From a virus (lineage: Duplodnaviria > Heunggongvirae > Uroviricota > Caudoviricetes), in the IMG/VR virus record IMGVR_UViG_643348547_000009: a DNA stretch of 15,806 nt, one strand, 5' to 3'. Both the position numbers and the translations under genes were made by a program. The notes below the pieces were generated by a model, which made no database searches, was not told where the DNA came from, and saw nothing but the letters and a program-made list of their open reading frames with translations. This document shows, one piece after another, positions 1 to 13,268 of the stretch (positions are counted from its first letter, which is position 1; every line of letters starts with the position of its first letter).

Positions 1-1461
1 ATGAAAAAATTACTGCGTCTTTTTTTCCCGCTCTCGCTGCGGGTACGTTTTCTGTTGGCAACGGCAGCGGTAGTACTGGTGCTTTCGCTTGCCTACGGAA
101 TGGTCGCGCTGATCGGTTATAGCGTCAGTTTCGATAAAACTACGTTTCGGCTGTTACGTGGCGAGAGCAATCTGTTCTATACCCTTGCGAAGTGGGAAAA
201 CAATAAGTTGCATGTCGAGTTACCCGAAAATATCGACAAGCAAAGCCCCACCATGACGCTAATTTATGATGAGAACGGGCAGCTTTTATGGGCGCAACGT
301 GACGTGCCCTGGCTGATGAAGATGATCCAGCCTGACTGGCTGAAATCGAATGGTTTTCATGAAATTGAAGCGGATGTTAACGATACCAGCCTCTTGCTGA
401 GTGGAGATCATTCGATACAGCAACAGTTGCAGGAAGTGCGGGAAGATGATGACGACGCGGAGATGACCCACTCGGTAGCGGTAAACGTCTACCCGGCAAC
501 ATCGCGGATGCCAAAGTTAACCATTGTGGTGGTGGATACCATTCCGGTGGAGCTAAAAAGTTCCTATATGGTCTGGAGCTGGTTTATCTATGTGCTCTCA
601 GCCAATCTGCTGTTAGTGATCCCGCTGCTGTGGGTCGCCGCCTGGTGGAGTTTACGCCCCATCGAAGCCCTGGCAAAAGAAGTCCGCGAACTGGAAGAAC
701 ATAACCGCGAATTGCTCAATCCTGCCACAACGCGAGAACTGACCAGTCTGGTACGAAACCTGAACCGACTGTTAAAAAGTGAACGCGAACGTTACGACAA
801 ATATCGTACGACGCTCACCGACCTGACCCATAGTCTGAAAACGCCACTGGCGGTGCTGCAAAGTACGCTGCGTTCTCTGCGTAGTGAGAAGATGAGCGTC
901 AGTGATGCTGAGCCGGTAATGCTGGAGCAAATCAGCCGCATTTCACAGCAAATTGGCTACTACCTGCATCGTGCCAGTATGCGCGGCGGGACATTGCTTA
1001 GCCGCGAGCTGCATCCGGTCGCCCCACTGTTGGACAATCTCACCTCGGCGCTGAACAAAGTGTATCAACGCAAAGGGGTCAATATCTCTCTCGATATTTC
1101 GCCAGAGATCAGCTTTGTTGGTGAGCAGAACGATTTTGTCGAGGTGATGGGCAATGTGCTGGATAATGCCTGTAAATATTGCCTCGAGTTTGTCGAAATT
1201 TCTGCAAGGCAAACCGACGAGCATCTCTATATTGTGGTCGAGGATGATGGCCCCGGTATTCCATTAAGCAAGCGAGAGGTCATTTTCGACCGTGGTCAAC
1301 GGGTTGATACTTTACGCCCTGGGCAAGGTGTGGGGCTGGCGGTAGCCCGCGAAATCACCGAGCAATATGAGGGTAAAATCGTCGCCGGAGAGAGCATGCT
1401 GGGCGGTGCGCGGATGGAGGTGATTTTTGGTCGCCAGCATTCTGCGCCGAAAGATGAATAA
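1..1461 (+). CDS. phoQ: Sensor histidine kinase PhoQ of the PhoP/PhoQ two-component system, complete 486 aa
   Basis: ATG at 1, TAA at 1459-1461. Two hydrophobic TM segments flank a periplasmic domain with the acidic cluster EDDDDAEM; H-box [11 protein letters not shown]; ATP-binding G-boxes DDGPGI and GQGVGLAV. Sequence matches E. coli PhoQ as I remember it. Confidence 0.97.
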
Positions 1462-1584
1462 ATATGTCCTTTTATCACTATATCAAGACAAACCATTGAT
1501 TTAATTAAATAATCTTCACTGCAAAAAGTGCCAAAAATCGCAAATTGACTACACCATTAACTACACCGTTCGGTGCACCGTATG

Positions 1585-1610: not shown

Positions 1611-1755
1611 GAAATATACAGGCGGATCATCTTTCCAGGGGGAAGCGCACCAATTCATGAGGGGCGTTAATGTCTATATGGGGATCTCCACCTACCTGGA
1701 TTTTTTTCCGGTTAAACGTTAATCAGGCTGGTGGGTTTTACCTGTTCTGTAGGAG

Positions 1756-1770
1756 TGGTCATTATGACCA
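1756..1770. repeat. Perfect 15 bp palindrome TGGTCATTATGACCA, copy 1
   Basis: Read directly; a 17 bp exact direct repeat GTGGTCATTATGACCAT is shared with 1850-1866. Confidence 0.7.
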
Positions 1771-1850
1771 TCCCTTATATCGTCCGAATGCCGGACGAAG
1801 GCACACATCAACCGTAACGAAAATCGTTATGGTTGCCTTGATGGTCTGCG

Positions 1851-1865
1851 TGGTCATTATGACCA
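1851..1865. repeat. Perfect 15 bp palindrome TGGTCATTATGACCA, copy 2
   Basis: Read directly; lies 95 bp downstream of copy 1 in the island/host junction zone. Confidence 0.7.
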
Positions 1866-1898
1866 TTCAGCCAATGACCTTAATCAGAATTTTTCGCT

Positions 1899-1922
1899 AA
1901 AAAATGACGTTGGCCACGTCAT
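1899..1922 (-). terminator. Candidate rho-independent terminator ending the packaging operon
   Basis: On the minus strand, inverted repeat ATGACGT / ACGTCAT (1904-1910 and 1916-1922) with a 5 nt loop, followed by a T6 run (A-run 1899-1904 on plus). About 70 nt downstream of the stop of ORF 1993-2274. Confidence 0.45.
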
Positions 1923-1992
1923 CCGGAAAGCACAAAATCACGTCGATTTTTAATGGATGGTTAAACCGTCTTTATCTCGATGTCCGTACGTA

Positions 1993-2274
1993 TTACGTAC
2001 GCAGTCGTTCCGGCTTCTTCCAGTGGTACGTTATTTTCTCCTTCTCCCGATACATCTCCACGCGGCGACGGTAGGCCAGCAACTCAAGAACTCTGGTTCG
2101 TATGTTGCGCATATCCACGCCATTAAGCTGGATACCATCACGGCGCATCACCTCAGCAACAACACGCGCATAATTTTCGGCTGTCACGCTGTCCGGCTGC
2201 GTGGTCTGTTCGTCAGCCTGCTGGTTGATTCCAGAGACGCGGCGGATTAATCGCAGTATTTCGGCTTCTGTCAT
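1993..2274 (-). CDS. Hypothetical 93 aa protein, last gene of the packaging operon
   Basis: ATG at 2274 with a GAGG Shine-Dalgarno 8 nt upstream; starts 13 nt after the TerL stop; basic C-terminus. I do not recognise the family. Confidence 0.5.
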   Translation of the reverse strand: MTEAEILRLIRRVSGINQQADEQTTQPDSVTAENYARVVAEVMRRDGIQLNGVDMRNIRTRVLELLAYRRRVEMYREKEKITYHWKKPERLRT

Positions 2275-2287
2275 GCTGCTGACCTCA

Positions 2288-3949
2288 TTACACCCCGCTA
2301 AATTCTTCCAGTTTCTGGCGGTGGCTGTCGCTTATATCAAAAGCAAAATCCTCATGCTCTGCCTGAAATGTACCAAACGCCATCAGTGCCGCTACGCTCG
2401 GGTCTATCTTGTTCGGTGATTTTTTCTTGTTCGGCTTGATATTGGCGTTCGCGTCACTCTGCATCACGACGTTACTCATCGACCAGGACAACACCGGATC
2501 GCCACGATGCACAATCACCCTGCGGTTAACAAAAACTTCGAACGATTTCGCCGCCGGACTGAATCTGAGGTAGGTTTGCGGGAACGGCTCCACCTCAAAG
2601 CCTGCCCCCTGTAATTGCGTTCTCAGGTGCGTGGCGTTCCACGTATCGAAGCCCACCAACCTGATATTAAATTTCTCGGCGTCCTGCATGATGTCATCTC
2701 TGATCCGGTCGTAATCAATGCAGTCGCCAGGCGTTGTGCATATCCAGCCCGCTTTAGCCCACTGGCGATAGACAGCGCGATTTTTATTGGCTGGGTTCTG
2801 TAGCTGGAACTCCGGCAGATAATGACGGGAAACCAGCATGATATTTTTACCGACCGGAAAGGCATAGCATACGCTGGAAATATCGCTGGTTGATGATAAG
2901 TCCAGCCCCGCGTAACACTCCTGACCGTGTAAATCTTCCTCCGTGAACGTTCCGGTACACTCAGCCCATGCACCATTACCCATCCACGGGGTAGTCCCCT
3001 GACACCAGATATTAAATCGCTTTGTCATCATCTCCACCCACTGCGACGGAATACCCCGCGCTTTCTGGATGGTTGAGGCCAGTTTTTCACGATCGACGGA
3101 AACATCGATGTTAGGGTTAGCCTTTATCCACATCGCCGGATCATCAACCTCGTTTTCGTCGTCCAGTTCGTAAATCAGTACAAAAATTGAATCGTTGACC
3201 TCTTCGCCGTCCAGGATCTGGCAGCAATAATCATAGTGCTGCTTACAGGCTGAAACGACGTTACTGCCCGATGTGGTAATGGCAAATAACAGCCCTTCGG
3301 GACGTGCGCCCATCCCCAGCTCAAGCGCGGAATAAACGCCGTTATCGGGGTGTAGGTGGTATTCGTCCACGATAGAAAGACTGGGGTTTGTCCCCTCGAT
3401 GGTTGCTGCTTTTGCTGCCAGCGGCTTTAACAGGCTGTTGCTTTTCGGGTGTATCACCTTATGCGCCTGAATATTCACCCGCCTGCGTAACGGTCGGGAT
3501 AAAAGGCACATCTGACGCGCATCATCAAAGACGATCCGCGCCTGGTCACGGCTCACCGCTGCGGTGTAGATATCCTGCTGACCGTTCTCCATAATCAGAA
3601 ACCAGTTAGCCAGAATCGCGGCGGTCGTGGATTTCGCATTTTTGCGCGGCACTTCGATAAAGGCGCTCGTGTATTTGCGCCGTCCGGTGGCCTTAACCTT
3701 AAAGCCGAGGATGCACGCAAAGGCGAACTGCTGCCACGGCTCCAGCTCAATGGGTCTGCCACGCATCGGTCCTTTTACGTGCGGGCACACCCTGGAAAAG
3801 GCAATAAACCGCTCCACAACCTCACGATCGAACGTGTAAAGGGGGCTTTTAAGGTCCGAAAAGTACCGTTTAACAGCCTGTTTTAACCGTTTACAGGCCG
3901 GAATTTTGCCCGTTTTTACGTCTTCTGCGTACTTATTCCAGGCGGTCAA
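2288..3949 (-). CDS. Phage terminase large subunit (553 aa)
   Basis: Walker-A-like PRKNAKST in the N-terminal ATPase region and an acidic nuclease-type C-terminal half; follows TerS directly. Start is TTG at 3949 with a GAGGA Shine-Dalgarno 5 nt upstream and overlaps the TerS 3' end by 17 nt; there is no in-frame ATG nearby. Confidence 0.88.
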   Translation of the reverse strand: MTAWNKYAEDVKTGKIPACKRLKQAVKRYFSDLKSPLYTFDREVVERFIAFSRVCPHVKGPMRGRPIELEPWQQFAFACILGFKVKATGRRKYTSAFIEVPRKNAKSTTAAILANWFLIMENGQQDIYTAAVSRDQARIVFDDARQMCLLSRPLRRRVNIQAHKVIHPKSNSLLKPLAAKAATIEGTNPSLSIVDEYHLHPDNGVYSALELGMGARPEGLLFAITTSGSNVVSACKQHYDYCCQILDGEEVNDSIFVLIYELDDENEVDDPAMWIKANPNIDVSVDREKLASTIQKARGIPSQWVEMMTKRFNIWCQGTTPWMGNGAWAECTGTFTEEDLHGQECYAGLDLSSTSDISSVCYAFPVGKNIMLVSRHYLPEFQLQNPANKNRAVYRQWAKAGWICTTPGDCIDYDRIRDDIMQDAEKFNIRLVGFDTWNATHLRTQLQGAGFEVEPFPQTYLRFSPAAKSFEVFVNRRVIVHRGDPVLSWSMSNVVMQSDANANIKPNKKKSPNKIDPSVAALMAFGTFQAEHEDFAFDISDSHRQKLEEFSGV

Positions 3950-4289
3950 GCTCGTCCTCTTCTTCTGTTTCCGGTGGATTTTTACGGCGGCTTATCGGGT
4001 CAAAACCGAGCAAGGAGGCCATTTTTATCATCACTCTTTCAGCGTCGGATTTTGCGCTTAATGCGGGGTTTCTGCTCTCGCCGCCCTGACTGTTAACAAT
4101 GCTGAACCCGCGCGCCGCAAGGTCTGCAACGGCTTTCCGGTAAATGGAGTAGTTGACGCAATACAGTTCCAGATTGCTCCAGTCGGCGGGGGTCAGGTCT
4201 CCCCGTTCCGCAAGCTGCCGCGATTTTTCCCGCCACTGCTTCACGGCGATATCATCCAGGTAGGCGGGGGCTTTCGGTGGTCTTGCCAT
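3933..4289 (-). CDS. Phage terminase small subunit, P27-like (118 aa)
   Basis: Small protein immediately upstream of and overlapping TerL, with an acidic C-terminal tail (ETEEEDELDRLE). The sequence resembles P27-family TerS as I remember it. Confidence 0.75.
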   Translation of the reverse strand: MARPPKAPAYLDDIAVKQWREKSRQLAERGDLTPADWSNLELYCVNYSIYRKAVADLAARGFSIVNSQGGESRNPALSAKSDAERVMIKMASLLGFDPISRRKNPPETEEEDELDRLE

Positions 4290-4340
4290 GCTTATTTTTC
4301 GTCAGATTATTTTTCAAAAAATTCCCGTGCATAAAAATTT

Positions 4341-4400
4341 GGGGAGGCGGTCGGTGCCCGGCGGGGTCGGGTTTGTCCTGAAAACGCCCCCCACCCCGTC
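4341..4400. other. Candidate cos / packaging recognition site in the HNH-TerS intergenic region
   Basis: GC-rich tract ggggaggcggtcggtgcccggcggggtcgggtttgtcctgaaaacgccccccaccccgtc, with a G-rich left end and a C-rich right end in inverted symmetry, lying between HNH and TerS where HNH-dependent cos sites usually sit. The first 10 nt (GGGGAGGCGG) resemble the start of the P2-type cohesive end GGCGAGGCGG, which I recall from memory. Confidence 0.35.
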
Positions 4401-4577
4401 ATACAGCCTCATCAGCGATTGCGGAAACATTCCATAACCTCGCGGTCACGGTCGGTTAATCGCTTCGCTGTGATGCGTTCTGCGCGTCCTGACGCTTTAT
4501 CTTTATGCCCTGTTTCCTGTGTCTTCCATGCGTCACGCTGCCTTATAAGTCCACGGATAAGGCGGTTTTGTTCCCGC

Positions 4578-5018
4578 TCATTCATCAGCGTCATACATCC
4601 AGTTATTGCGGTTAGCGGCCCGTTCTTCCTCTTCACGAAATCCACCTGCGGCACGCTTGCTTTTTGTTGCCGGATCAAGCCATTTCGTTTTCTGGTTATG
4701 GCACGCCTGACACAATGGTTGATGGTTCCATTCGGGCCAGAAGAGAACATCATCACCGCCATCGATGGGGATAATGTGATCCACCACCACGGCGGGCGTA
4801 TATATCCCCTTCTCAAGGCATCGCACGCATAACGGGTTTTTACTCAGATACATGGCGCGGTATTTGTCCCACTGTCTGGAGTACCCACGCGCGCGGCGGT
4901 GTCCTCGTCTGGCATCCTCTGCACGCCATGCCGCCCGCCTGTGCTCCTCACACTTGCCGGACTTCACGCGCCTGTTACAGCCTGGTTCTGTGCATCGTCT
5001 TAATGGTTGCCACGGCAT
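4578..5018 (-). CDS. HNH endonuclease, phage packaging-associated (146 aa)
   Basis: HNH-type motifs CVRCLEKG, VDHIIPIDGG and CQACHNQK; sits directly upstream of TerS as in HK97-like HNH/terminase systems. ATG at 5018 overlaps the stop of the upstream gene (ATGA). Confidence 0.85.
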   Translation of the reverse strand: MPWQPLRRCTEPGCNRRVKSGKCEEHRRAAWRAEDARRGHRRARGYSRQWDKYRAMYLSKNPLCVRCLEKGIYTPAVVVDHIIPIDGGDDVLFWPEWNHQPLCQACHNQKTKWLDPATKSKRAAGGFREEEERAANRNNWMYDADE

Positions 5019-5314
5019 CAGTACACCCCCACATCACGATAAACCGACCAGAGCATCCCTACAGCCAGCGGGATTTCTTTTGTGTCTCCATCCCCGACCG
5101 TGGCCCTGTATTCGTACAGTTGCGACACGTACATCATGCAGCCAATCTTTATGGCTGGCGTGAACTCCAGCCCGTCATCAAAGCGCCTGCCGATGTGTTT
5201 CTGGCACACCTCAAGCGCGGCGGCGATGTATCCGCTGATTAACTGGTCTTCCTCATTGCCATCAATGCGGCAATGGAGTTTCACTTCTTCCAGGGTGATT
5301 AATTCTGCTGTCAT
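5018..5314 (-). CDS. Head-tail connector protein, gp6-like (98 aa)
   Basis: N-terminal LEEVKLHCRIDGNEEDQLISGYIAAA pattern typical of gp6-like connector proteins; start and stop overlap neighbours by ATGA. Confidence 0.7.
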   Translation of the reverse strand: MTAELITLEEVKLHCRIDGNEEDQLISGYIAAALEVCQKHIGRRFDDGLEFTPAIKIGCMMYVSQLYEYRATVGDGDTKEIPLAVGMLWSVYRDVGVY

Positions 5315-5649
5315 CGTGGCGCACCTGTTTTACAAAGAATTTCCAGACGAGTCCTTTTACCGTCGGGAACGGGGGGGCCAACAATATCAAGCTCATTGCC
5401 GGAATAAGCCCCCGTGAGTACCCGTATCCGGCTGGATGCCGTAACATCCACACGAAAACGGATCCAGACTCTTACGGTTGCCTGTGCCGTTTCTGCACCT
5501 GCGGTCATGCGTTCCCGTCCGCTGATCCCTTTCACCTCCGCCCATACGGTGGCAACATCCTCCCATGTGCTTTTCATTGCACCGGAAGGGAGGCGGGAAA
5601 GTTTCGCGCTCATGATGACAATGCGATCCCTCATGCTCCCCGCTCTCAT
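5311..5649 (-). CDS. Phage head closure / head-tail joining protein (112 aa)
   Basis: Size, position between portal and connector, and resemblance to the head closure protein family; ATGA overlap with the portal stop. Confidence 0.68.
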   Translation of the reverse strand: MRAGSMRDRIVIMSAKLSRLPSGAMKSTWEDVATVWAEVKGISGRERMTAGAETAQATVRVWIRFRVDVTASSRIRVLTGAYSGNELDIVGPPVPDGKRTRLEILCKTGAPR

Positions 5650-6860
5650 GATTTGCCCTCTTTATCATCCTTTACTTCGATCTCCTGTTTCCAGGCCTGG
5701 CTGAACTCATCGCCACCATCACGCGGCGATAATCCCTCACGTTCGCGGGCTTCGTTCGGGCACATAACGCCGGACTTGATGCCGCGTTCATAGGTGGCAA
5801 AGCGTTCGCCAGGTGTGGCCCGTAACAGATCCGCGCTGTCAAACTCCACCTGATACCGGATACCAGGTACAGGCGAGGCCACCAGCAAAGCATTTTTTAT
5901 CTGCTGCTCAAAGTTCGCCAGCCACGGGCGCATCGTCATGGTGAGAAATGCGCGGCTTGCCTCGCTGAAATTGCTGTAGGTGCTGTTGCTGTATTCCTGC
6001 AGAAAAATCGGCGAGACGTTGAACATTCGGGCGATGTCTTCAATGGTGAAGCGACGGGAGGCCAGCCATTCAGCATCCTGGTTACTCATGCCAAGCTGCT
6101 GATAGCTCATACCCCCTTCAAGAATGGGCGTTTTTCCGGCGTTTCTGGCTCCTTTGTAGCGTTCCAGTGCGGCTAATGCCTGTTTGCCCTTCACGCCGTC
6201 CAGCCATTCGCCTGACGTGATAACCCCTGCTGCCATCATGCCATCACGCATCACGCTCGCGCCGTGGCGCTGTTGGGCCAGCCCAAGCCCCAGCGATTCG
6301 CGGCAGATGGTCACAGGTGAGCGCCCCATAAAGCCGTCATCCGTGGAGTAACGAAGGTGGAGAACCTCCCACGGTAAATAGTTGCGGGTGTTTCCGCTGT
6401 AAGCGTCAGTGATGCGGTAACGCCAGTTATGTTCCCCTGTCTGCTCAACATTCACCGACTGCGGCGGGTAAGGGTGCAAAGCCACTGGAAAACCATCACG
6501 CCCCCACTGAATCACCGCATAAGCATTACCGTTTAACAGGCAGTGGCGGACCATCATTCGCTTAAACTGATAGGGCGTCTGCCACGCGTTCGGGCGCTCG
6601 TTGAGGATATGATCGACCGGATGAGAATCAAGCCACTCGCGGGCCTCCTTCCCCTTCTCATTGCGTACCAGGTACAGGTAGCATGGCATAGTAGCCACCG
6701 CCTCAGAGATGACCGTGACGGCGTTCATGACGGCGGGGAGTGATTCCGCTGTCCCCGATGATACGTACTCACCCGCCCCCGTGTTCGATGTGCCAGCCAG
6801 CGCCATAAATTCATCCAGCGTCATGCTGCGATGCTCTTGTTTTCGTCTGAAAGGCCACAT
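5646..6860 (-). CDS. Phage portal protein, HK97 family (404 aa)
   Basis: About 400 aa protein adjacent to the prohead protease with an acidic C-terminal tail; GGGGG Shine-Dalgarno about 6 nt upstream of the ATG at 6860. Confidence 0.88.
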   Translation of the reverse strand: MWPFRRKQEHRSMTLDEFMALAGTSNTGAGEYVSSGTAESLPAVMNAVTVISEAVATMPCYLYLVRNEKGKEAREWLDSHPVDHILNERPNAWQTPYQFKRMMVRHCLLNGNAYAVIQWGRDGFPVALHPYPPQSVNVEQTGEHNWRYRITDAYSGNTRNYLPWEVLHLRYSTDDGFMGRSPVTICRESLGLGLAQQRHGASVMRDGMMAAGVITSGEWLDGVKGKQALAALERYKGARNAGKTPILEGGMSYQQLGMSNQDAEWLASRRFTIEDIARMFNVSPIFLQEYSNSTYSNFSEASRAFLTMTMRPWLANFEQQIKNALLVASPVPGIRYQVEFDSADLLRATPGERFATYERGIKSGVMCPNEAREREGLSPRDGGDEFSQAWKQEIEVKDDKEGKS

Positions 6861-6861
6861 A

Positions 6862-7437
6862 TCACACCCCCGCTAAATCCGCCCACCAGCGGCGATTATC
6901 CGCGCGTGGCATTTTTTCGGGGTGCTGCTCATACAGGGAACGGCGGGCCAGATCCACGCCGGAATCAGGGTAAGCCGGTACGGATGTAACGGTAATTTCG
7001 TACAGTTCCGCCACCAGCACGGTGCGCACGCATGGATCTGTTGTGGTATCCCATACATCCTTACGGGAACGAAAGCCAAAGCTCATCCCCGAGATATCAC
7101 CACGCTTAACCAGTTCGATAACGTCCCGCCCTGTACTGGTATCCGGTGGGGTCAGTTCAAAGCGTAACCCTGTTTCATCCTCTTCCAGTTTCAGCGTACC
7201 GGAACGGGTACGCCCCAGTAACATGCTGTGGTCGTGCTCATACAGGCCGCGAACGTCATTACCCGCCGCCAGCCACTCACTGAACGCCCCCCGCTGGAAT
7301 TTTTCGTAAAACTCACCCCATAGCAGATCAGAAAGGTTATTCCAGCGAACAACGTAACCCGTCAGCGTACTGGCTCCGCTGGTGGTGATTTCTGATGACC
7401 GGATTTCCATGCTCTTTTTCATATTTTTTTCACCCAT
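6862..7437 (-). CDS. HK97-family prohead protease (191 aa; start may instead be the ATG at 7422)
   Basis: Conserved protease-family segments LYEHDHS, GRTRSGTL and GMSFGF. The ATG at 7437 has no good Shine-Dalgarno; the in-frame ATG at 7422 has GGTGA about 9 nt upstream. Confidence 0.85.
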   Translation of the reverse strand: MGEKNMKKSMEIRSSEITTSGASTLTGYVVRWNNLSDLLWGEFYEKFQRGAFSEWLAAGNDVRGLYEHDHSMLLGRTRSGTLKLEEDETGLRFELTPPDTSTGRDVIELVKRGDISGMSFGFRSRKDVWDTTTDPCVRTVLVAELYEITVTSVPAYPDSGVDLARRSLYEQHPEKMPRADNRRWWADLAGV

Positions 7438-7445
7438 AAAACACC

Positions 7446-7468
7446 AAAGGGGCTTTTTAGCCCCTTTT
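7446..7468 (-). terminator. Stem-loop plus U-rich tract between the capsid and protease genes (candidate attenuator)
   Basis: Inverted repeat AAAGGGGC / GCCCCTTT (8 bp stem, 6 nt loop) 4 nt after the capsid stop; on the minus strand it is followed by GGTGTTTT and then the protease ATG. Confidence 0.4.
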
Positions 7469-7472
7469 TCTG

Positions 7473-8645
7473 TTAACCGCCGTTTTTCATCTCGAGGACT
7501 TTTATCGCGCGGGAGTCAACAACCCCGCCGCCGATGTATTTGTCCGTGTGTACCTTGTAGAAACCCGGCTCTGTAATGTTGTCCGGTCGGGTACGAATAC
7601 CCGTTTCATGGTCAACGATGAAATAACCGCGCTTAAAGTCACCGACAGCCAGCGGCGTTTTGCCTTTGCCGATGTCCGGCATACTTTCCAGGTAATAAAC
7701 AGGACGGCCCAGCAATGTGTCAGGTGCGCCCTCTTTGAGGCTGTCACGCCATACGTAATCACCGCTCTGGTTTTTCAGCTTCTGCAATGCTGCCGCTGTG
7801 CTCGAGTTCATCACCCATACGGCGTTCTTACGGTATTTCGCTTTCAGCTTGTAGAGGATGTCGATCAGTTCGTCCGCTGTAATGGCGGCTTCGGCTGCTG
7901 CTACCATTTTTTCAATGGTGCCAAAGGCGCGGGTTTTGTCGTTGGTTAGATCTCGGTTGTAACTCAGGAAACCTTTCGGCTTGCCAGTACCATTACCATT
8001 TACAAAATCATCTTCTTCGGTCGTGGCGAACGTATCGGCGATTTCAGACGATAACCAGCCCAGTACGTCCACCTCTGAAAAATCCAGAATTTCCTGTGTG
8101 GTTTTCGGGTAGGCATAGATCGGGTTAAGTTTGATGCTTACGCGCTCAACTTTCGGGGTGTTGGTTTCGTTACGCTTGCTGCCCTCGGTTCCATAATTTA
8201 CAGCCGCGCCACCTGTGGAAACCAGTTTCTGATATTCGTTTGATTTCGCCGTTTTCACGGTCGCAATCATTCGCATGACGCTTTCATCACTCAGTAACCG
8301 CATGACCTCGCGATCAAGCTCAGGGATAACGGTATAGCCACCGTCCTTGCCGCTGTTGCTAGTGGTGGATAATGAGCGAACGTCACCCGTTACGATGTAA
8401 TTGCGAAGTTCTGCGGGGTCAGTGGTCTGGCTGGCTTTACCTGGCTTGCTGCGCTCTTCGTCTGCAATGGCTTCAAGGCGGGAAATGTCTTTATCGAGGG
8501 ATTCAGCTTTAGCGCGTAATTCGTCAAATTTTGCGCCCTCAGCATCGTTAAGACTGCGGTTTTCTTTTTCCGCGTTCTCCAGCATGTCGCGCATCTGATT
8601 TTTAATGGCGGTTTTCTGCTGGCGTAATTCGATTATTCTCGGCAT
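7473..8645 (-). CDS. Major capsid protein, HK97 fold (390 aa)
   Basis: N-terminal coiled-coil scaffold-like delta domain (ELRQQKTAIKNQMRDMLENAEKE...), about 390 aa, adjacent to the prohead protease; ATG at 8645. Confidence 0.92.
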   Translation of the reverse strand: MPRIIELRQQKTAIKNQMRDMLENAEKENRSLNDAEGAKFDELRAKAESLDKDISRLEAIADEERSKPGKASQTTDPAELRNYIVTGDVRSLSTTSNSGKDGGYTVIPELDREVMRLLSDESVMRMIATVKTAKSNEYQKLVSTGGAAVNYGTEGSKRNETNTPKVERVSIKLNPIYAYPKTTQEILDFSEVDVLGWLSSEIADTFATTEEDDFVNGNGTGKPKGFLSYNRDLTNDKTRAFGTIEKMVAAAEAAITADELIDILYKLKAKYRKNAVWVMNSSTAAALQKLKNQSGDYVWRDSLKEGAPDTLLGRPVYYLESMPDIGKGKTPLAVGDFKRGYFIVDHETGIRTRPDNITEPGFYKVHTDKYIGGGVVDSRAIKVLEMKNGG

Positions 8646-8682
8646 AAAAAAAGTCCTGGGGTTAAGTAAGGAACTCCAGGAC
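8646..8682 (-). promoter_or_regulatory. Terminator-like hairpin plus T7 tract directly abutting the capsid start codon
   Basis: Minus strand reads GTCCTGG-(16 nt loop)-CCAGGAC-TTTTTTT-ATG. The only Shine-Dalgarno candidate (AGGA) is inside the 3' arm of the stem. Confidence 0.4.
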
Positions 8683-8859
8683 GCGGCAAAAACTCAACCG
8701 TTTTTCATAAGGAAATCAGCAATCGCACCGATCGTTTTCCCGCCTGGTAATGAATATTGGCGAGAACATTAACAGGCGGAAAAGTGGCCCCAGCGTCCTG
8801 GCACCACGGGCGAGAATAATCATGATTCAGTTCGGGTAAAATATGCCGATCCGGTCAGC

Positions 8860-8885
8860 GAACAACGTGGAACAACCACGAACAA
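8860..8885. repeat. Three GAACAA direct repeats at exact 10 bp spacing in the packaging-operon upstream region
   Basis: Read directly: cGAACAAcgtgGAACAAccacGAACAAataa; shares a 15-mer with 1586-1600. Confidence 0.6.
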
Positions 8886-8904
8886 ATAATTTACAAAACA
8901 TGAC

Positions 8905-8925
8905 AAAAAGCCGGATTGCTCCGGC
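8905..8925 (-). terminator. Candidate rho-independent terminator after the perC-like gene
   Basis: On the minus strand, GCCGGA-gcaa-TCCGGC (6 bp stem, tetraloop) followed by TTTTTGTCATGTTTTG, starting 7 nt after the perC-like stop. Confidence 0.5.
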
Positions 8926-8932
8926 TGTGTGA

Positions 8933-9205
8933 TTATCTGTCCTGGTAATTTCGCCATATTTCATCACCAGCACCATCCATACCCATTTCGGCATAAGTGC
9001 GATCGACCGCCTTTTTCAGGTCTCCGTAATTATCCGGCGGCTCCGGTGGCCTCTGTGCCTTCCTGGAACATTCCAGCCGTCGCATCGTGATGTGATGCCG
9101 TTCCTTGTCTGTCTCCACCAGTTGCATGACTTCACCCCATCGCGCCGACGCTCTCCGGTAAAAGCCTTTCGCCTCCAGTTCTTCCGCTATGCGGTCATGT
9201 ACCAT
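8933..9205 (-). CDS. PerC-family transcriptional regulator-like protein (90 aa)
   Basis: N-terminal pattern MVHDRIAEELEAKGFYRRASARW matches my recollection of PerC-family proteins; strong Shine-Dalgarno (GAGGGGGG); last gene before the head module. Confidence 0.55.
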   Translation of the reverse strand: MVHDRIAEELEAKGFYRRASARWGEVMQLVETDKERHHITMRRLECSRKAQRPPEPPDNYGDLKKAVDRTYAEMGMDGAGDEIWRNYQDR

Positions 9206-9214
9206 CGCCCCCCC

Positions 9215-9625
9215 TCAGAACGGAATATCATCACCGTAAGGGTCATCGCCTCCCGCTGGTGGCTGATTACCCTGTGTGCCTGTGGTCTTGCGTCGGCTCC
9301 CACCAGGTCGCGCCGTTCTGGCACTGATTACGCTGTCTGCAATAACCTGCCAGCCCTGCCGCGTTTCGCCGTTCTGGCCTGTCCACTGGCTTACCTGCAT
9401 GTTACCCGCCACGCTCACCAGCTCGCCTTTGTGGTGTTTTGCCAGTGCGTCGGCCTGTCTGCCAAACGCCAGGACGGATAACCACATCGTCGCCTGTCCG
9501 TCATCTGCCTGATTGCACGGCAGGGGGACCGCCATGCTTGCCATAGCCATTTGTGTGCCCTTGCTGGTGGTCTTTAACTGCGGGTCAGCCACCAGCCGCC
9601 CGTAAGCGGCTATCTGTGCTGTCAT
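9215..9625 (-). CDS. ssb: Single-stranded DNA-binding protein (136 aa)
   Basis: OB-fold-like N-terminal region alignable with E. coli SSB, a Gly/Pro/Gln-rich linker, and the acidic C-terminal tip DDIPF. Confidence 0.8.
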   Translation of the reverse strand: MTAQIAAYGRLVADPQLKTTSKGTQMAMASMAVPLPCNQADDGQATMWLSVLAFGRQADALAKHHKGELVSVAGNMQVSQWTGQNGETRQGWQVIADSVISARTARPGGSRRKTTGTQGNQPPAGGDDPYGDDIPF

Positions 9626-9879
9626 GATTCCACCTCTCCGGTTTTAACGTTGATGGTTGTTACCTGTTCCGCTTCGGCAATCTCCCGTTCCGTCAGCGTG
9701 GCAAAGTTTGCCGCCGCCGTGGTCATGAATGCGCTTATCAGGTCGGGATGTGCTTTCGCGTATCCTTCCCCCGTGTTGCGGTCGATGATTTTTATCGCCA
9801 CTCTCAGCCAGTGCTCTGTAAGGTCAATGGCGCGGTTATGCTGCTTCTTCTGATTATTAAGTTTTCCTGATGTGCGCAT
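9622..9879 (-). CDS. Hypothetical 85 aa protein between the ori and ssb
   Basis: ATG at 9879 with a GAGGGGG Shine-Dalgarno upstream; stop overlaps the ssb start (ATGA). Function unknown. Confidence 0.5.
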   Translation of the reverse strand: MRTSGKLNNQKKQHNRAIDLTEHWLRVAIKIIDRNTGEGYAKAHPDLISAFMTTAAANFATLTEREIAEAEQVTTINVKTGEVES

Positions 9880-9928
9880 TTTTATTTTTACCCCCTCGTT
9901 TAAAAAGTTTTGAGTTGTGCCTCCCCTT

Positions 9929-10154
9929 GTCTACCTTATCTACCTTACTGGCTCTCATGCCAGTAATGGCGCGGCTTTCAGCGGGGTAGAGTGCTTTTAT
10001 CCACTATCTACCCCGTATCTACCTCCCTGTCTGATTCAGGTAAAATCAGGTAGAGAGGGTAGATAGTAGGTAGACAGTGAAAAAAGGCTGTCTACCTAAG
10101 TTAATATACTGAATTAAATGTATTTTTCTTTACTCAGGTAGACAGGGTAGACAG
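9929..10154. repeat. Candidate replication origin: about 11 iterons with core GGTAGA / TCTACC in both orientations, plus an AT-rich stretch
   Basis: TCTACC at 9931, 9940, 10007, 10018 and 10091; GGTAGA at 9985, 10049, 10058, 10069, 10138 and 10147. AT-rich segment at about 10100-10130. Located immediately 3' of the primase gene. Confidence 0.65.
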
Positions 10155-10167
10155 CCATTGCAAAAAA

Positions 10168-11916
10168 TTATAAAAACGCGTCGCAATCGTCTGTTGTTAT
10201 TGCGTTAGTCTGCGTTACTCCCTTAACTTTCCGCGTAATATATTCATGTCCGTAAACTTTCGCGGCTGGCTTCATAGCCTTGCCAAAGTCATTTACGTTT
10301 AGCGGTTTGCTCCTGCCTGCGTATGCCATAAACGCCAGATAGACGCGGTAAAGGCTGTTTCTGGTCGTGTACTTCACTGAATCGCCACCGCCACCCATCA
10401 TCAGGCCGCGCGCTTCCTCCAGAAAATTCAGGAACTGGCAAAACTCAATAACCGGATCCGTCTGTTGCTTTATTGCCAGTGCTTCATCACCGTCACGCTG
10501 TTCCAGTAGTAAAGCCCGTGCCTTCTCAGGGTCGGTAAAGTTCGCCAGCAAGCGGCGGATAATGACAGGGATTTCAGCCGCGATCTTTTCCGGTAGCTCC
10601 CTGTCTTTTTCTGCCTCGCTTACGATATTGTCGAAGCGGAAAATAACCCGACGACGTGACACGCCTCCGGCCCGTTCGGTGAATATCATCGGGTTGTTAT
10701 TGGTCGCCAGCACCACCGCCCTGATTACCGTAGTGAAACGCTTTTCATATTTCGGGTTGATTTCCACGGGGTCGCCGCCCGTGATTTTCTTGATGCCCGT
10801 GCCTTCGCCTGTATATTTCGGCTGGTCTGCCAGGACGATAAGACGACTCCCGACAACCTGCGCACGCCCACCAGCATCATCAAGCGATGTCATTTCCGCG
10901 CTTACCGTGTTTTGTTTCCCCGCTAAAAGGCTGGCGATGTGGGTGAATGTACTTTTGCCGCTCCCGCCGTCTCCGGTGGCCTCAATAAACATCTGCCAGT
11001 CGTACCGGTTCGCCATAATCATGTACAGCGCGGCACATATACGCATCATCTTGCGCGAGTCTTTTCCGGCTGCGTGCTCAAGCCATTTATGAAAGTTTGG
11101 CGCGTTATCGCGGATGTTCTCCCCTGGTGCTGGTGGCGTGTACTCAATGCCGTTGTTCGTGGTGATCCAGTTCTCCGGCGTGTGCGGGGAAAATTCCCCC
11201 GTTTTCAGGTCAAGCGCACCATTGGCGAACGGCAGCAAATCGCCGGACGGCTCGCCCATTGGTTCGGCAATAACTTTTAACGCTTCCACGGCGTTATTGA
11301 TTACGCGCTTGCTGAAAGTGGCCCTGTGCTCTGAATAGATCGCCACCATTTCGCGGCTAAGTTCCATTGTGCTGACCGGACACCATACCCCGCCGCGCCA
11401 TACGTGAACGATTTCACTTTCCGGATGCACACAAACGCCATCAAATCGACCAGCAAGCATCTGTGCGCGCTCACTGTCTGCCATTTGTGCCAGTTGCGTA
11501 TTTTTCTGCTCCGGCATGGTAAGCCCTGCGGCAATATTTTCACGCTCAGCATTCAGATAGCGCCGCCAGTTTTCACACTTCTGGACGTGCATTCCTTCGG
11601 GGTAAAAATTTGCGTCCTGAATATCTGCCGCCGCCAGCTTCTGACCAATCTTTTTGGTCTCCACCAAATCCAGTTCTCCGGCCTGGTACAGCCTTACGCG
11701 TTTTTTTCCATCCGGAACAATTTTCAGTGCATCAAGTTCGGCAAGCTGATTTGGCCCAAGCCACACAGGCGGCACATTATCGCCGGATGCGGGGCCATCC
11801 TGCTCCTGCCATTGTTTCGCGTGCGACCAGGCATCACTACCCGCGAAAATAATTACCTCTGTGTCTTTGTGTTTTATTCCGCGTGGCTGTTTTTTTACGT
11901 TCGGTGCCAGTTTCAT
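10168..11916 (-). CDS. Phage/plasmid primase-helicase, P4 family (582 aa)
   Basis: Walker A motif GDGGSGKST in the C-terminal NTPase domain and a primase-like N-terminal half; ATG at 11916 with an AGGGG Shine-Dalgarno; followed by the iteron region. Confidence 0.88.
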   Translation of the reverse strand: MKLAPNVKKQPRGIKHKDTEVIIFAGSDAWSHAKQWQEQDGPASGDNVPPVWLGPNQLAELDALKIVPDGKKRVRLYQAGELDLVETKKIGQKLAAADIQDANFYPEGMHVQKCENWRRYLNAERENIAAGLTMPEQKNTQLAQMADSERAQMLAGRFDGVCVHPESEIVHVWRGGVWCPVSTMELSREMVAIYSEHRATFSKRVINNAVEALKVIAEPMGEPSGDLLPFANGALDLKTGEFSPHTPENWITTNNGIEYTPPAPGENIRDNAPNFHKWLEHAAGKDSRKMMRICAALYMIMANRYDWQMFIEATGDGGSGKSTFTHIASLLAGKQNTVSAEMTSLDDAGGRAQVVGSRLIVLADQPKYTGEGTGIKKITGGDPVEINPKYEKRFTTVIRAVVLATNNNPMIFTERAGGVSRRRVIFRFDNIVSEAEKDRELPEKIAAEIPVIIRRLLANFTDPEKARALLLEQRDGDEALAIKQQTDPVIEFCQFLNFLEEARGLMMGGGGDSVKYTTRNSLYRVYLAFMAYAGRSKPLNVNDFGKAMKPAAKVYGHEYITRKVKGVTQTNAITTDDCDAFL

Positions 11917-12212
11917 TTTTTACCCCTGAATACGTTAAGCATCTTTTTTATTTCCTGAATATTGGCGCGTGCTTTCTCCCTGCTGGTGGGCACGTTACGC
12001 GGTACGGCCTGCACCAGAGAAAAATCACGATCGAACTGATAAACAGGCATCACGCAATCATATTCGTAGCCTTCACGACGGTAGGTTACGCGCCGTTCCT
12101 CCACGCCCTTAATCATTACCATGCCGCCATATTTATCGCGGTAAATATCGCCGTTCATAAATTCAGGACGAGCGGGGCCGCTGGCAGTAACGCCAGAATT
12201 TTTATTTTTCAT
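11913..12212 (-). CDS. Small hypothetical protein (99 aa), possibly DUF4222-like (tentative)
   Basis: ATG at 12212; stop overlaps the primase start (ATGA). The RDKYGGMVMIKGVEERRVTYRREGYEYDCVMP segment resembles small proteins I recall upstream of P4-family primases. Confidence 0.5.
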   Translation of the reverse strand: MKNKNSGVTASGPARPEFMNGDIYRDKYGGMVMIKGVEERRVTYRREGYEYDCVMPVYQFDRDFSLVQAVPRNVPTSREKARANIQEIKKMLNVFRGKK

Positions 12213-12217
12213 GTTTT

Positions 12218-12445
12218 TTATTCTCCGGTGTGCTGCGCTTTATTATTCTCGTGAATTGCCATCACTGTATTTAATTCATTAATAACAGGCGTTAATAGCG
12301 TACGCACGGCAGAAAACATCATTGAATCAGATTCATCGCCACTTTCCGGCACATCAATTAACTTAAGTAGTAATGCGTCCATTTCCTTTGCGCGGATTAA
12401 TGCGTTTTCAGAATGAACAAGAACATCAAAGGGTATTTTATGCAT
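12218..12445 (-). CDS. Hypothetical 75 aa protein
   Basis: ATG at 12445 preceded by AGGGGGGGA; start overlaps the last codons of the upstream Icd-like ORF (ATGCATAA). The longer 109 aa reading in the ORF track has no Shine-Dalgarno. Confidence 0.5.
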   Translation of the reverse strand: MHKIPFDVLVHSENALIRAKEMDALLLKLIDVPESGDESDSMMFSAVRTLLTPVINELNTVMAIHENNKAQHTGE

Positions 12446-12902: not shown

Positions 12903-13098
12903 GATGTGACCCCTGACGAATACGGGCGGCGAATACCATCACGCAGCCAGCCGGGGATTGCTGGCGTGCCTCCTGTTCGCTGGTGGCCTCAATGGTAATC
13001 ACGCGCGGTTGTGCCGTGCTCAGGGCGATAAAACGCCAGATGTATTTATTCAGGTTGTGCGAATCCCGCCCTTGCGGGTGTGTGGTATGATTTAACAT
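12895..13098 (-). CDS. Icd-like small protein, copy 2 (67 aa)
   Basis: ATG at 13098 with GAGG 5 nt upstream; ...KYIWRF...ATSEQEARQQ...FAARIRQGSHHA. The long upstream in-frame extension (353 aa ORF) is Cys/Arg-rich and antisense to plus-strand genes, so it is treated as non-coding. Confidence 0.5.
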   Translation of the reverse strand: MLNHTTHPQGRDSHNLNKYIWRFIALSTAQPRVITIEATSEQEARQQSPAGCVMVFAARIRQGSHHA

Positions 13099-13192
13099 AG
13101 CTACCTCGATACTTTCGCTATCGTTGGTGGTTAGAAGCCCCGTTACTGCTCCTACAGTGCGGGGTTTCGTCGTTTCTACACCTTGCCTTAAT

Positions 13193-13249: not shown

Positions 13250-13268
13250 ATTTTTTTTCCTGCATACT
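13240..13268 (+). promoter_or_regulatory. Candidate sigma70 promoter for the plus-strand RHH gene, overlapping operator 3
   Basis: TTGAAC at 13240-13245, a 17 bp spacer containing a T8 run, and CATACT at 13263-13268, about 30 nt upstream of the ATG at 13298. Confidence 0.3.

What the first reader, a model, noticed from the sequence alone, without database searches (positions are those of the whole stretch)
1755..1866. Two copies of a perfect 15 bp palindrome TGGTCATTATGACCA, 95 bp apart
Each palindrome is embedded in an identical 17 bp direct repeat (GTGGTCATTATGACCAT), in non-coding DNA between the operon terminator and the repeat-dense junction. A pair of strong dyad sites at this spacing suggests a dimeric DNA-binding protein site, perhaps a looping or partition-like site, a recombination site, or a host regulator box controlling what lies beyond the island.
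Basis: seen in the sequence. Interest (0 to 1): 0.45.

Follow-up and report, generated by a model that had tools for sequence, protein, structure and literature searches.

The report
Hairpin repeat modules in a phage satellite
The two palindromes are real, but they are two copies of one stem-loop module from a patchwork of hairpin repeats at the far end of a phage satellite island, and neither the pair nor the palindrome is needed for that kind of island to spread.

Summary
Observation confirmed: TGGTCAT-T-ATGACCA occurs at 1756-1770 and 1851-1865, each inside the 17-mer GTGGTCATTATGACCAT.

The DNA is not host sequence. It lies 300-400 bp inside a 14.5 kb capsid-forming PICI (cf-PICI, a phage satellite related to EcCIEDL933) inserted between phoQ and roxA.

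The pair is not conserved:
- Only 10 of 5426 complete E. coli genomes carry both copies.
- Related islands carry 0, 1 or 2 copies at varying spacing.
- The EDL933 island, taken here to be the transfer-proficient prototype, has one copy.
- The CFT073 island has a broken copy.

What is conserved is hairpin potential:
- A second allele, TAATCATAATGATTA, keeps the dyad through changes on both arms.
- The flanks extend each stem.
- In sister islands the first palindrome's slot holds unrelated hairpins, within a block of conserved length.

The identical 17-mer also occurs in Pasteurellaceae cf-PICI-like elements, just after the HNH gene. It is absent from deposited phage genomes, and its count across 185,579 species genomes is near chance.

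Best reading: a satellite-borne, REP/BIME-like stem-loop module. It probably acts as a hairpin in transcripts, as a barrier or insulator between the late operon, phoQ and int. This function is inferred, not shown.

A looping operator pair, a host regulator box, cos and att-arm roles are not supported.

The parts
1460..1469 (.). att core (direct repeat AAATATGTCC) marking the int-distal edge of the island. It overlaps the last two bases of the phoQ stop codon (1459-1461).
   Evidence: Comparison with the empty K-12 site and with the int-proximal junction in CE10.
1544..1567 (+). Two tandem 12-mers, ATTGACTACACC and ATTAACTACACC. They are probably integrase arm-type sites. The same motif lies next to int at the other end of the island.
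   Evidence: D4. L001 30402-30425. The role is inferred.
1727..1734 (+). Chi site GCTGGTGG, 22 nt upstream of palindrome 1. It is conserved in nearly all versions of the block.
1751..1775 (.). Stem-loop module 1. The conserved top is 1755-1771 (palindrome 1756-1770). The lower stem is AGG/CCT after a G.T pair and a mismatch.
   Evidence: (I8). In sister islands this slot holds unrelated hairpins.
1780..1798 (.). Hairpin H2, TCGTCCG-AATGC-CGGACGA. It is specific to the two-copy variant. Other variants have CCCCAATGGGG-type hairpins here.
1809..1835 (.). Hairpin H3, CAACCGTAACG-5nt-CGTTATGGTTG. It is the most widespread partner of palindrome 2 and resembles the AACCGTTGC... hairpins of the Pasteurellaceae arrays.
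1841..1875 (.). Stem-loop module 2. The conserved top is 1850-1866 (palindrome 1851-1865). The lower stem is CTG/CAG. An extra half-site ATGGTC lies at 1841-1846.
   Evidence: (I4). Window 1830-1868, which includes the palindrome, is 100% identical to EDL933.
1899..1922 (-). Intrinsic-terminator-like hairpin ATGACGT-GGCCA-ACGTCAT followed by six T on the minus strand. It is the probable end of the late (capsid to terL to orf93) operon. Both palindromes lie beyond it.
   Evidence: Sequence. Fold of -13.7 kcal/mol. The simple consensus scan did not list it.
1985..2001 (.). Another 8-1-8 palindrome, CGTACGTA-T-TACGTACG, overlapping the orf93 stop codon.
   Evidence: Sequence.
1993..2274 (-). orf93, the last gene of the late operon and the usual neighbour of the hairpin array in E. 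coli islands. Its function is unknown (phrog_1561).
   Evidence: The AF2 model is of low confidence. It is absent from the Pasteurellaceae carriers.
4290..4411 (-). Probable true cos region of this island. It is a G-rich element between HNH/small ORF and terS, conserved from E. coli to Pasteurella, Haemophilus and Aggregatibacter. It is listed to show that the palindromes are not cos.
   Evidence: alignment A1.

Best explanation
The window is the 3' end of phoQ followed by a capsid-forming phage-inducible chromosomal island (cf-PICI), a close relative of EcCIEDL933. The two palindromes are the conserved 17-nt tops of two stem-loop modules. These modules belong to a modular hairpin array that fills the non-coding stretch between the island's last gene and its int-distal att site.

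Such arrays sit at the int-distal end of several kinds of E. coli PICI-like satellites. A related array sits between the HNH gene and cos in Pasteurellaceae cf-PICI-like elements. The arrays are built from interchangeable hairpin units, and in some relatives the units carry IHF-consensus linkers. This is the same design as REP/BIME/RIP extragenic palindromes, but the sequences are unrelated and the arrays are satellite-borne.

The two-copy state in this window is a rare product of module shuffling. It is not a functional pair.

Proposed mechanism (inferred, not shown): the modules act as stem-loops in single-stranded nucleic acid, most likely in transcripts. Arrays of stable hairpins stop 3' exonucleases and dampen read-through. 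Here they would insulate three transcription units that meet at this point:
- phoQ, reading into the island on the plus strand.
- The late packaging operon, reading out on the minus strand.
- int, which after excision and circularisation lies directly downstream of the array on the same strand as the late operon.

Identity as a shuffled hairpin module, not an operator pair: about 0.85. The specific RNA barrier or insulator role: about 0.3. The single confidence value given (0.4) is a compromise between these two.
For: Location and identity of the island:
- Gene content is int, HTH, Icd-like, primase, SSB, PerC, capsid, protease, portal, head closure, connector, HNH, TerS (P27 family), TerL and orf93.
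- The att core and the empty K-12 site define the boundaries.
- EcCIEDL933 is described as a cf-PICI in bioRxiv 10.1101/2022.09.08.507074.

The pair is not conserved:
- 10 of 5426 genomes carry both copies, while 728 carry the H3 plus palindrome 2 part.
- Of 52 arrays anchored on orf93, 20 have one allele-1 copy, 13 have one allele-2 copy, 9 have none and 3 have two allele-1 copies.
- The EDL933 island has one copy, and the CFT073 island has TGGTAATTATCAGCA.
- Both those islands, if they are the published EcCIEDL933 and EcCICFT073, transfer experimentally.

Hairpin constraint:
- Allele TAATCATAATGATTA sits in the same flanks, with GG/CC changed to AA/TT. L008 has TGATCATTATGATCA.
- Flanks beyond the 17-mer are complementary: 3.63 of 7 positions against 2.49 with shuffled partners, reached in 0 of 5000 shuffles.
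- The block from Chi to palindrome 2 keeps a length of 179-189 nt while its first two hairpins are swapped for unrelated hairpins.
- Both strands fold well below shuffled controls, with z scores from -2.3 to -5.9.
- 53 distinct hairpins were found in the E. coli arrays.

Cross-genus conservation: the identical 17-mer lies directly after the HNH stop codon in Aggregatibacter, Haemophilus and IMG/VR Pasteurellaceae-type elements related to Pasteurella phages Pmp7 and Pmp8.

Position relative to transcription:
- A minus-strand terminator-like hairpin lies at 1899-1922.
- int and the late operon are on the same strand.

The exonuclease-blocking and read-through roles of REP-type hairpins are established knowledge for E. 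coli REP/BIME elements, not a result obtained here.
Against: - No transcript data were available, so it is not shown that either strand of 1690-1990 is transcribed.
- In this window both palindromes lie downstream of a good minus-strand terminator. They may see little late-operon transcription.
- The hairpins show no strand bias in G.T against A.C mismatches (16 vs 24 in E. coli, 6 vs 9 in Pasteurellaceae). That does not favour RNA over DNA.
- The motif's orientation relative to the neighbouring operon is opposite in E. coli and in Pasteurellaceae.
- A pure barrier role does not explain why the top 17 nt are identical across genera while the lower stems differ. That pattern suggests sequence-specific recognition by an unknown factor.
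- Nine arrays have no such palindrome, and Pmp8 has no array between HNH and terS. Any role is therefore dispensable.
Confidence: 0.4

Rival explanations
1. Each palindrome is a duplex-DNA operator for a dimeric protein of the satellite, the helper phage or the host. A copy would repress or activate something nearby, for example a weak promoter whose -10-like hexamer (CATTAT on plus, CATAAT on minus) lies in the centre of the dyad.
For: - Perfect 7-bp arms.
- The 17-mer is identical from E. coli to Pasteurellaceae while the lower flanks vary.
- Symmetric arm changes (GG/CC to AA/TT) are also what a change of operator specificity would look like.
- An extra half-site lies upstream of palindrome 2 and changes together with the allele.
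- A 43-nt stretch that includes palindrome 2 is invariant between the window and EDL933.
Against: - No other copy exists anywhere in the island with up to 3 mismatches, so there is no regulon.
- No promoter reaches the scan threshold at either palindrome.
- Copy number and spacing are not conserved, and 9 of 52 arrays lack the palindrome.
- Flank complementarity and replacement by unrelated hairpins are not expected for a duplex operator.
- No candidate protein is shared by all carriers. orf93 is absent from the Pasteurellaceae elements.
- The motif is absent from deposited phage genomes.
Confidence: 0.2
2. The modules have no function of their own. They would be selfish or mutationally generated palindromes (template-switch or quasi-palindrome correction, unequal recombination) in dispensable DNA, perhaps tolerated as filler that adjusts genome length to the small capsid. 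On this view the repeated 17-mer is simply a recombination scar.
For: - The architecture is highly mosaic, with the 17-mer at junctions between at least 4 left flanks and at least 6 right flanks.
- L023 and L007 look like a deletion between the two copies.
- Copies number 0 to 2, and array length is very variable.
- Functional islands carry one copy or a broken copy.
- Many IMG/VR contigs end right after orf93, as expected for repeat-rich DNA.
Against: - An identical 17-mer in E. coli and in Pasteurellaceae elements of 40% G+C is hard to explain without selection.
- The dyad is kept through compensatory changes.
- The 43-nt stretch around palindrome 2 shows no change, while neighbouring third codon positions differ at 12%.
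- The block length is conserved.
Confidence: 0.2
3. The hairpin array is an accessory part of the packaging site. It would be a nucleoprotein region on the cosQ side of cos (IHF bends plus terminase or HNH contacts) that helps cos cleavage or the end of packaging.
For: - In Pasteurellaceae elements the palindrome and the hairpin units lie between HNH and the conserved G-rich cos, 50-450 bp upstream of it.
- The units in relatives carry perfect IHF consensus sites WATCAANNNNTTR.
- In classical E. coli PICIs the array lies roughly 0.1-0.6 kb from a lambda-type cosN, on the side that is packaged last.
Against: - In this island the conserved cos-like element is at 4290-4411, 2.4 kb away on the other side of terS and terL.
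- The window's array has no IHF units.
- The array occurs in islands with quite different packaging modules and in one with none visible nearby: TerL type, lambda-cos/Rpp type, small-capsid type and Q-like type.
- Pmp8 has no array between HNH and terS.
Confidence: 0.12
4. The hairpins act in single-stranded DNA as priming signals (ssi-type, as in phage G4 or RSF1010). They would be used by the island's P4-like primase together with its own SSB during replication.
For: - The island encodes a primase-helicase and an SSB.
- The hairpins are equally good on both strands.
- A conserved top with a variable lower stem is typical of hairpins read by a protein.
Against: - The carriers have different replication proteins: a P4-like primase here and DUF927 in the tRNA-Gly island.
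- The array is far from the primase gene, next to which the EcCICFT073 origin was mapped (pri-ori constructs, PMC6092414).
- There is no direct evidence.
Confidence: 0.08

Closest known systems
REP / BIME / RIP extragenic palindromic elements of E. coli
   Same: - Both are extragenic imperfect palindromes of about 20-40 nt arranged in mosaic arrays.
- In relatives the hairpins alternate with linkers that carry the IHF consensus, as in RIP/BIME-1.
- They are placed just after stop codons and between convergent units.
- Copy number varies through recombination.
   Different: - There is no sequence similarity to REP.
- The arrays are not dispersed in the host chromosome. They are confined to PICI-type satellites and are also found in Pasteurellaceae.
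- No RAYT-type transposase is associated.
- Many different hairpin sequences occur instead of one consensus.
Non-coding int-distal end of E. coli PICIs (EcCIEDL933, EcCICFT073)
   Same: The window's island has the same organisation and the same insertion site as the EDL933 island. This identification rests on gene content and position. The array is homologous, and H3 plus palindrome 2 are near-identical.
   Different: - The prototype has one palindrome plus about nine hairpin/IHF units, whereas this island has two palindromes and no IHF units.
- Term searches of the PICI papers consulted returned nothing on non-coding, intergenic, palindromic or inverted-repeat sequences where those words were searched, and no passage about this region.
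Lambda sib / tI retroregulation region beyond att
   Same: A structured non-coding region lies next to att. Its linkage to int changes between the integrated and the circular form.
   Different: - Here int is transcribed away from att, so the array lies upstream of int in the circle, not downstream.
- No RNase III site has been shown.
- The resemblance is in logic only.
Paired operators for DNA looping (lac, gal, deo, lambda OL-OR)
   Same: Two identical dyads about 9 helical turns apart.
   Different: Neither the pair, the spacing nor the presence is conserved. No promoter or regulator is associated.

Membership tests
Paired operator / DNA-looping site | Two sites kept together at a conserved, helically phased spacing in related elements | tested here: not met
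   10 of 5426 genomes carry both copies. Copies number 0, 1 or 2. Spacings of 95, 85 and 271 bp were seen, plus 311 bp between two allele-2 copies.
Paired operator / DNA-looping site | Dyad symmetry fit for a dimer | tested here: met
   Perfect 7-bp arms around one central base.
Paired operator / DNA-looping site | Overlap with or proximity to a promoter, and a cognate regulator gene | tested here: inconclusive
   No promoter-like site lies at the palindromes in the consensus scan. Only weak hexamers were seen by eye. No protein is shared by all carriers.
Host transcription-factor box (regulon member) | Further copies at host promoters, and presence in island-free genomes | tested here: not met
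   The exact 17-mer count in one genome per 185,579 species is near chance (98 found, about 70 expected). No E. coli record is among the listed hits, and the only recognisable carriers are satellite-like elements. In E. coli every matching place that was opened lay at the end of a PICI-like island.
REP/BIME-like extragenic palindromic arrays | Extragenic imperfect palindromes able to form stem-loops, arranged in mosaic arrays | tested here: met
   (53 distinct hairpins). Flank complementarity.
REP/BIME-like extragenic palindromic arrays | IHF-binding linker between palindromes (RIP/BIME-1) | tested here: inconclusive
   The consensus WATCAANNNNTTR is present 1-6 times in many related arrays but 0 times in the window-type arrays. 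Binding was not tested.
REP/BIME-like extragenic palindromic arrays | Sequence homology to the REP consensus and dispersal over the host chromosome | tested here: not met
   At most 5 places per genome, and those opened were all at island ends. No REP-like consensus was seen in the sequences read. The comparison with the REP consensus is from memory.
cos site of HNH-dependent (HK97/P27-type) packaging | Conserved element immediately upstream of terS | tested here: not met
   The element conserved across genera is at 4290-4411. The palindromes are 2.4 kb away, beyond terL.
att arm (integrase arm-type or excisionase sites) | Specific to one integrase/att type and within a few hundred bp of the core | tested here: not met
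   The same block occurs in islands at phoQ, tqsA, rclA, clpS, yejO and tRNA-Gly, with different arm repeats. In Pasteurellaceae it lies between HNH and terS.
Intrinsic terminator | G+C-rich hairpin followed by a U tract | tested here: not met
   No T run follows either palindrome on either strand, and none was found by the scan. The true terminator-like hairpin is at 1899-1922.
Described RNA family (Rfam 15) | Match to a covariance model | tested here: not met
   Nothing below E = 0.3 in 1300-2500. Nothing at gathering score in the window or in seven related loci, except C4 RNA elsewhere in the window.
Small protein gene | Open frame kept, with mostly synonymous change | tested here: not met
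   Block lengths differ by 3, 6 and 7 nt. The 13-codon frame that starts in palindrome 2 changes almost only non-synonymously and loses its start codon in L013 (sequences).

The most novel reading that the evidence does not exclude
The 17-nt stem-loop top GTGGTCATTATGACCAT, and its compensated allele, may be a sequence-specific recognition hairpin shared by PICI-type satellites of Enterobacteriaceae and Pasteurellaceae. An as yet unknown hairpin-binding factor of the helper, the host or the satellite would read it. On that reading the factor might couple late transcription or packaging to int expression after circularisation, or mark the satellite DNA or RNA for its own machinery.
Probability: 0.18. 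Interest if true: 0.6.

Novelty: new variant of a known kind. Interest (0 to 1): 0.3.

Why it matters
PICI and cf-PICI satellites move virulence and defence genes between bacteria. Their genes have been dissected, but term searches of the four PICI papers consulted returned nothing about their conserved non-coding ends.

This work shows three things:
- The end of these islands is a structured, modular hairpin array.
- One module is conserved between genera.
- The array sits where host, late-operon and integrase transcription meet.

That gives a concrete and easily testable candidate for a cis-acting control or insulation element. If the modules prove to be inert, the result still matters in practice. 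The region could then serve as a safe insertion site for engineered PICIs. The repeats may also explain why assemblies often break just after orf93.

Tried and rejected
- Host repeat or regulator box. Rejected by the genome-contig scan and by the island boundaries.
- cos site. Rejected because a conserved cos-like element lies at 4290-4411. Lambda cosN (GGGCGGCGACCT) was not found in the window-equivalent stretches of L001 and L191.
- att-arm or excisionase sites. Rejected because the block is shared by islands with different integrases.
- Known RNA family. Rfam gave nothing. Esr41 was checked as a lead; it is in Rfam and did not match.
- Strand-specific RNA. I first thought G.U pairs favoured the plus strand. 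A symmetric count showed no bias, 16 vs 24.
- Small ORFs. AGGAG-N8-ATG at palindrome 1 gives 17 codons, and the ATG in palindrome 2 gives 13 codons. There is no coding-type conservation.
- Sigma-70 promoter inside the dyad. It scores only 8 of 12 by eye and is not reported by the scan.
- Fur box. Allele 2 resembles three NATWAT hexamers, but allele 1, the one in this window, does not. This comparison is from memory and was not tested.
- orf93 as the cognate binder. It has no Pfam match and no PDB relative, the AF2 model is of low confidence (pLDDT 62), and it is absent from the Pasteurellaceae carriers. No fold search was run on that model.
- Helper-phage origin. There is no match to 50,697 phage records.
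- The literature search on CP-933C and small RNA led nowhere.
- Some exact 17-mer hits in unrelated contigs lie in coding sequence, for example in Providencia genes and inside a 194-aa ORF in L038. They were treated as chance.

Full report
**1. Observation**

TGGTCATTATGACCA is present at 1756-1770 and 1851-1865. Shuffles give 0.29 matches with up to three mismatches. Each copy lies inside the identical 17-mer GTGGTCATTATGACCAT, at 1755-1771 and 1850-1866, 95 bp apart.

The dyad is 7+1+7, so the opposite strand differs at the central base. Only the 17-mer is repeated. The flanks differ, but each flank pair is partly complementary, which gives longer imperfect inverted repeats at 1751-1775 and 1841-1875 (I8 and I4).

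**2. Where it is**

The first 1461 bases are the 3' end of phoQ. In K-12, phoQ and roxA are 75 bp apart. In this window, and in the near-identical strain CE10, a 14.5 kb island follows the phoQ stop codon (1459-1461). It is bounded by the direct repeat AAATATGTCC, at window 1460-1469, with the second copy beside int.

The gene content is int, HTH, Icd-like, primase, SSB, PerC, capsid, protease, portal, head closure, connector, HNH, P27-family TerS, TerL and a 93-aa ORF. This is the organisation of capsid-forming PICIs, whose prototype EcCIEDL933 comes from strain EDL933 (bioRxiv 10.1101/2022.09.08.507074). The EDL933 island occupies the same site. Equating that island with EcCIEDL933, and the CFT073 island with EcCICFT073, is my inference from gene content, position and the two cos sites.

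The palindromes are therefore island DNA, 300-400 bp inside the int-distal end. They lie between probable integrase arm repeats (1544-1567, with the same motif next to int) and a minus-strand terminator-like hairpin (1899-1922, -13.7 kcal/mol, followed by six T). That hairpin probably ends the late operon.

**3. Distribution**

The non-coding stretch 1600-1990 has relatives in about 1050 of 5426 complete E. coli genomes. Every locus I opened showed it at the int-distal end of a PICI-like island. These islands sit at different insertion sites: phoQ, tqsA, rclA, clpS, yejO and tRNA-Gly. They also have different late modules: TerL type, lambda-cos type, small-capsid type and Q-like type.

- The two-copy arrangement of this window is found in only 10 genomes. 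The hairpin H3 plus palindrome 2 part is found in 728.
- Of 52 arrays anchored on orf93 in IMG/VR, 20 have one copy of this allele. Thirteen have one copy of a second allele, 9 have none, 3 have two copies, and the rest are mixed.
- The EDL933 island has one copy. The CFT073 island, which has the two lambda-type cosN sites described for EcCICFT073, has a broken version, TGGTAATTATCAGCA.
- Both published elements transfer at high frequency in experiments. Neither the pair nor an intact palindrome is therefore required.
- L023 and L007 carry one copy flanked by the left flank of copy 1 and the right flank of copy 2. That is the product expected from recombination between the two copies.

Outside E. 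coli:
- The exact 17-mer is found 98 times in one genome per 185,579 species. About 70 hits are expected by chance for 596 Gb on two strands.
- The hits that resemble the window's element are in Aggregatibacter segnis and a Haemophilus species.
- There, and in five IMG/VR contigs with 40-46% G+C, the 17-mer lies 3-50 nt after the stop codon of an HNH gene. It is followed by more hairpins, units with IHF consensus sites, a G-rich element and terS.
- These elements are related to the 10-15 kb Pasteurella phages Pmp7 and Pmp8, which have cf-PICI-like gene content.
- Pmp8 itself has only 127 bp between HNH and terS and lacks the array.
- Deposited phage genomes match neither the window region, nor the EDL933 array, nor the 17-mer in a meaningful context.

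**4. What is conserved**

*(a) The dyad.* In the same flanks (ctgcG...Ttcag) two alleles are about equally common: TGGTCATTATGACCA and TAATCATAATGATTA. They differ by changes on both arms. L008 has TGATCATTATGATCA, and one-arm intermediates also exist.

*(b) A longer stem.* Beyond the 17-mer the flanks pair at 3.63 of 7 positions. Shuffling the partners gives 2.49, and none of 5000 shuffles reaches the observed value. The contexts are not all independent. Typically there is a G.T pair, one mismatch, then 3-6 pairs whose sequence differs between contexts: AGG/CCT, CTG/CAG, TTGGG/CCCAA and TGAAT/ATTCA.

*(c) The slot.* The block from Chi to palindrome 2 is 179-189 nt long in all variants. Its first two hairpins are replaced by unrelated hairpins. 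For example, GGTGTTATGATTATCGTAATACC occupies the place of palindrome 1. The lengths differ by 3, 6 and 7 nt, so the block is not coding.

*(d) Folding.* Both strands fold far better than shuffles, with z scores from -2.3 to -5.9. The arrays contain 53 different hairpins.

*(e) Constraint.* The 43 nt ending in palindrome 2 are identical between the window and EDL933, while terL differs at 64 of 554 third codon positions.

I first thought that G.T pairs pointed to a plus-strand RNA. A symmetric count shows no bias: 16 G.T against 24 A.C in E. coli, and 6 against 9 in Pasteurellaceae. That argument is withdrawn.

**5. What it is not**

- **Not cos.** A non-coding element conserved from E. coli to Pasteurella lies between HNH/small ORF and terS, at window 4290-4411.
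- **Not an att-arm site.** Islands with different integrases share the block.
- **Not a described RNA family**.
- **Not an intrinsic terminator.** There is no T tract.
- **Not a small gene.** Substitutions in the short frames are almost all non-synonymous.
- **Not an obvious promoter**.
- **orf93 is not a plausible binder.** It is the usual neighbour in E. coli but has no Pfam or PDB relative and only a low-confidence model, and it is absent from the Pasteurellaceae carriers.

**6. Most likely mechanism**

The design resembles REP/BIME/RIP elements: mosaic arrays of stable extragenic hairpins, in relatives interleaved with IHF-consensus linkers, starting at a stop codon. The sequences are unrelated to REP and the arrays are confined to satellites.

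The position is a meeting point of transcription. phoQ reads in on the plus strand, and the late operon reads out on the minus strand. After excision the same minus strand continues across attP into int, which starts 178 bp beyond the core.

I therefore favour a role as stem-loops in transcripts that block exonucleases and read-through. This would insulate these units. It follows from what is established for REP-type hairpins and is an inference. No expression data were available.

This view does not explain why the top 17 nt are identical across genera while the lower stems vary. That leaves room for an unknown factor that reads the hairpin or the duplex dyad. The rivals, with rough weights, are:
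- a duplex operator (0.2);
- functionless shuffled palindromes or filler (0.2);
- a packaging accessory region (0.12);
- a single-strand priming signal (0.08).

**7. Verdict**

- The idea of a functional pair (looping or partition) or of a host regulator box is not supported.
- The element is a member of a previously undescribed, satellite-borne family of hairpin repeat modules, and its duplication here is incidental.
- Interest is modest. It would rise if the 17-nt hairpin proves to be a recognition element.

Noticed in passing
window 1727-14922 (14 sites): The island is extremely rich in Chi sites (GCTGGTGG). There are 14 in 14.3 kb, 7 on each strand, against 0.46 expected from shuffles. That is about one per kb, several times the E. 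coli average as I recall it. This may protect the linear or rolling-circle satellite DNA from RecBCD, since the annotated CE10 island shows no Gam homologue. One site (1727-1734) is conserved in the hairpin block of nearly all relatives.
   Followed up: partly
window 12660-12747 (-): A C4 antisense RNA (Rfam RF01695, 72.7 bits against a gathering score of 45) lies in the regulatory region, next to the Icd-like genes. This is a P1/P7-type immunity RNA inside a cf-PICI.
   Followed up: no
window 4290-4411 (-): The non-coding element between HNH/small ORF and terS is conserved from E. coli to Pasteurella, Haemophilus and Aggregatibacter. It has a GGGGG...TTTT tract, then ACCGCC.CC, then TCAAATTTTTA.GCA and ATTTTTT..AAAATAA. 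It is probably the cos site of these cf-PICIs. The cf-PICI papers consulted do not appear to map it.
   Followed up: partly
window 1544-1567, and L001 30402-30425: Tandem ATT(A/G)ACTACACC repeats, followed by GAAACAA/GGAACAA motifs, lie on both sides of the att core. They are probably integrase arm-type and accessory sites. The rclA and yejO islands have different repeats (CGTATAAC...) at the same place.
   Followed up: partly
window 1985-2001: A second perfect palindrome with the same kind of odd-centred layout (8-1-8), CGTACGTA-T-TACGTACG, overlaps the orf93 stop codon.
   Followed up: no
L003 2790-3225, L005, L009, L012, L212, L098: Related arrays contain up to about nine tandem units. Each unit is a variable perfect hairpin (for example CCTCAAATTGAGG, GCGCAATTTTGCGC or ACGAAAATTTCGT) plus a linker with a perfect IHF consensus (AATCAACGGGTTA or TATCAACCAGTTA). 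Homologous units occur upstream of cos in Haemophilus and Aggregatibacter elements.
   Followed up: partly
L004 1875-1915, L007, L008, L013, L055: GTCAC is repeated four times at 10-11 bp spacing (tGTCACggtgtGTCACtggttGTCACtctccGTCACg) in many arrays, just beyond a plus-strand hairpin followed by a T run. The arrangement is iteron-like. It is absent from the window.
   Followed up: no
L191-L270: About a third of the IMG/VR contigs that encode orf93 end 6 nt after its stop codon. This suggests that short-read assemblies break at the hairpin array.
   Followed up: no
L271 (NZ_CP075632.1 4472000-4486600): Another PICI-like island lies at tRNA-Gly, next to the ETT2 type III secretion remnant. It carries Rha, Icd-like, DUF927, SSB, a ProQ/FinO-family RNA chaperone, three PerC genes and a Q-like antiterminator. 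It ends in the same hairpin block, with two copies of the 17-mer 271 bp apart.
   Followed up: partly
L006 2263-2274(+) and 3002-3013(-); L007 and others: Classical PICIs that share the array have two convergent lambda-type cosN sequences (GGGCGGCGACCT) flanking one gene, just beyond the orf93 homologue. This matches the cos1 and cos2 described for EcCICFT073.
   Followed up: partly
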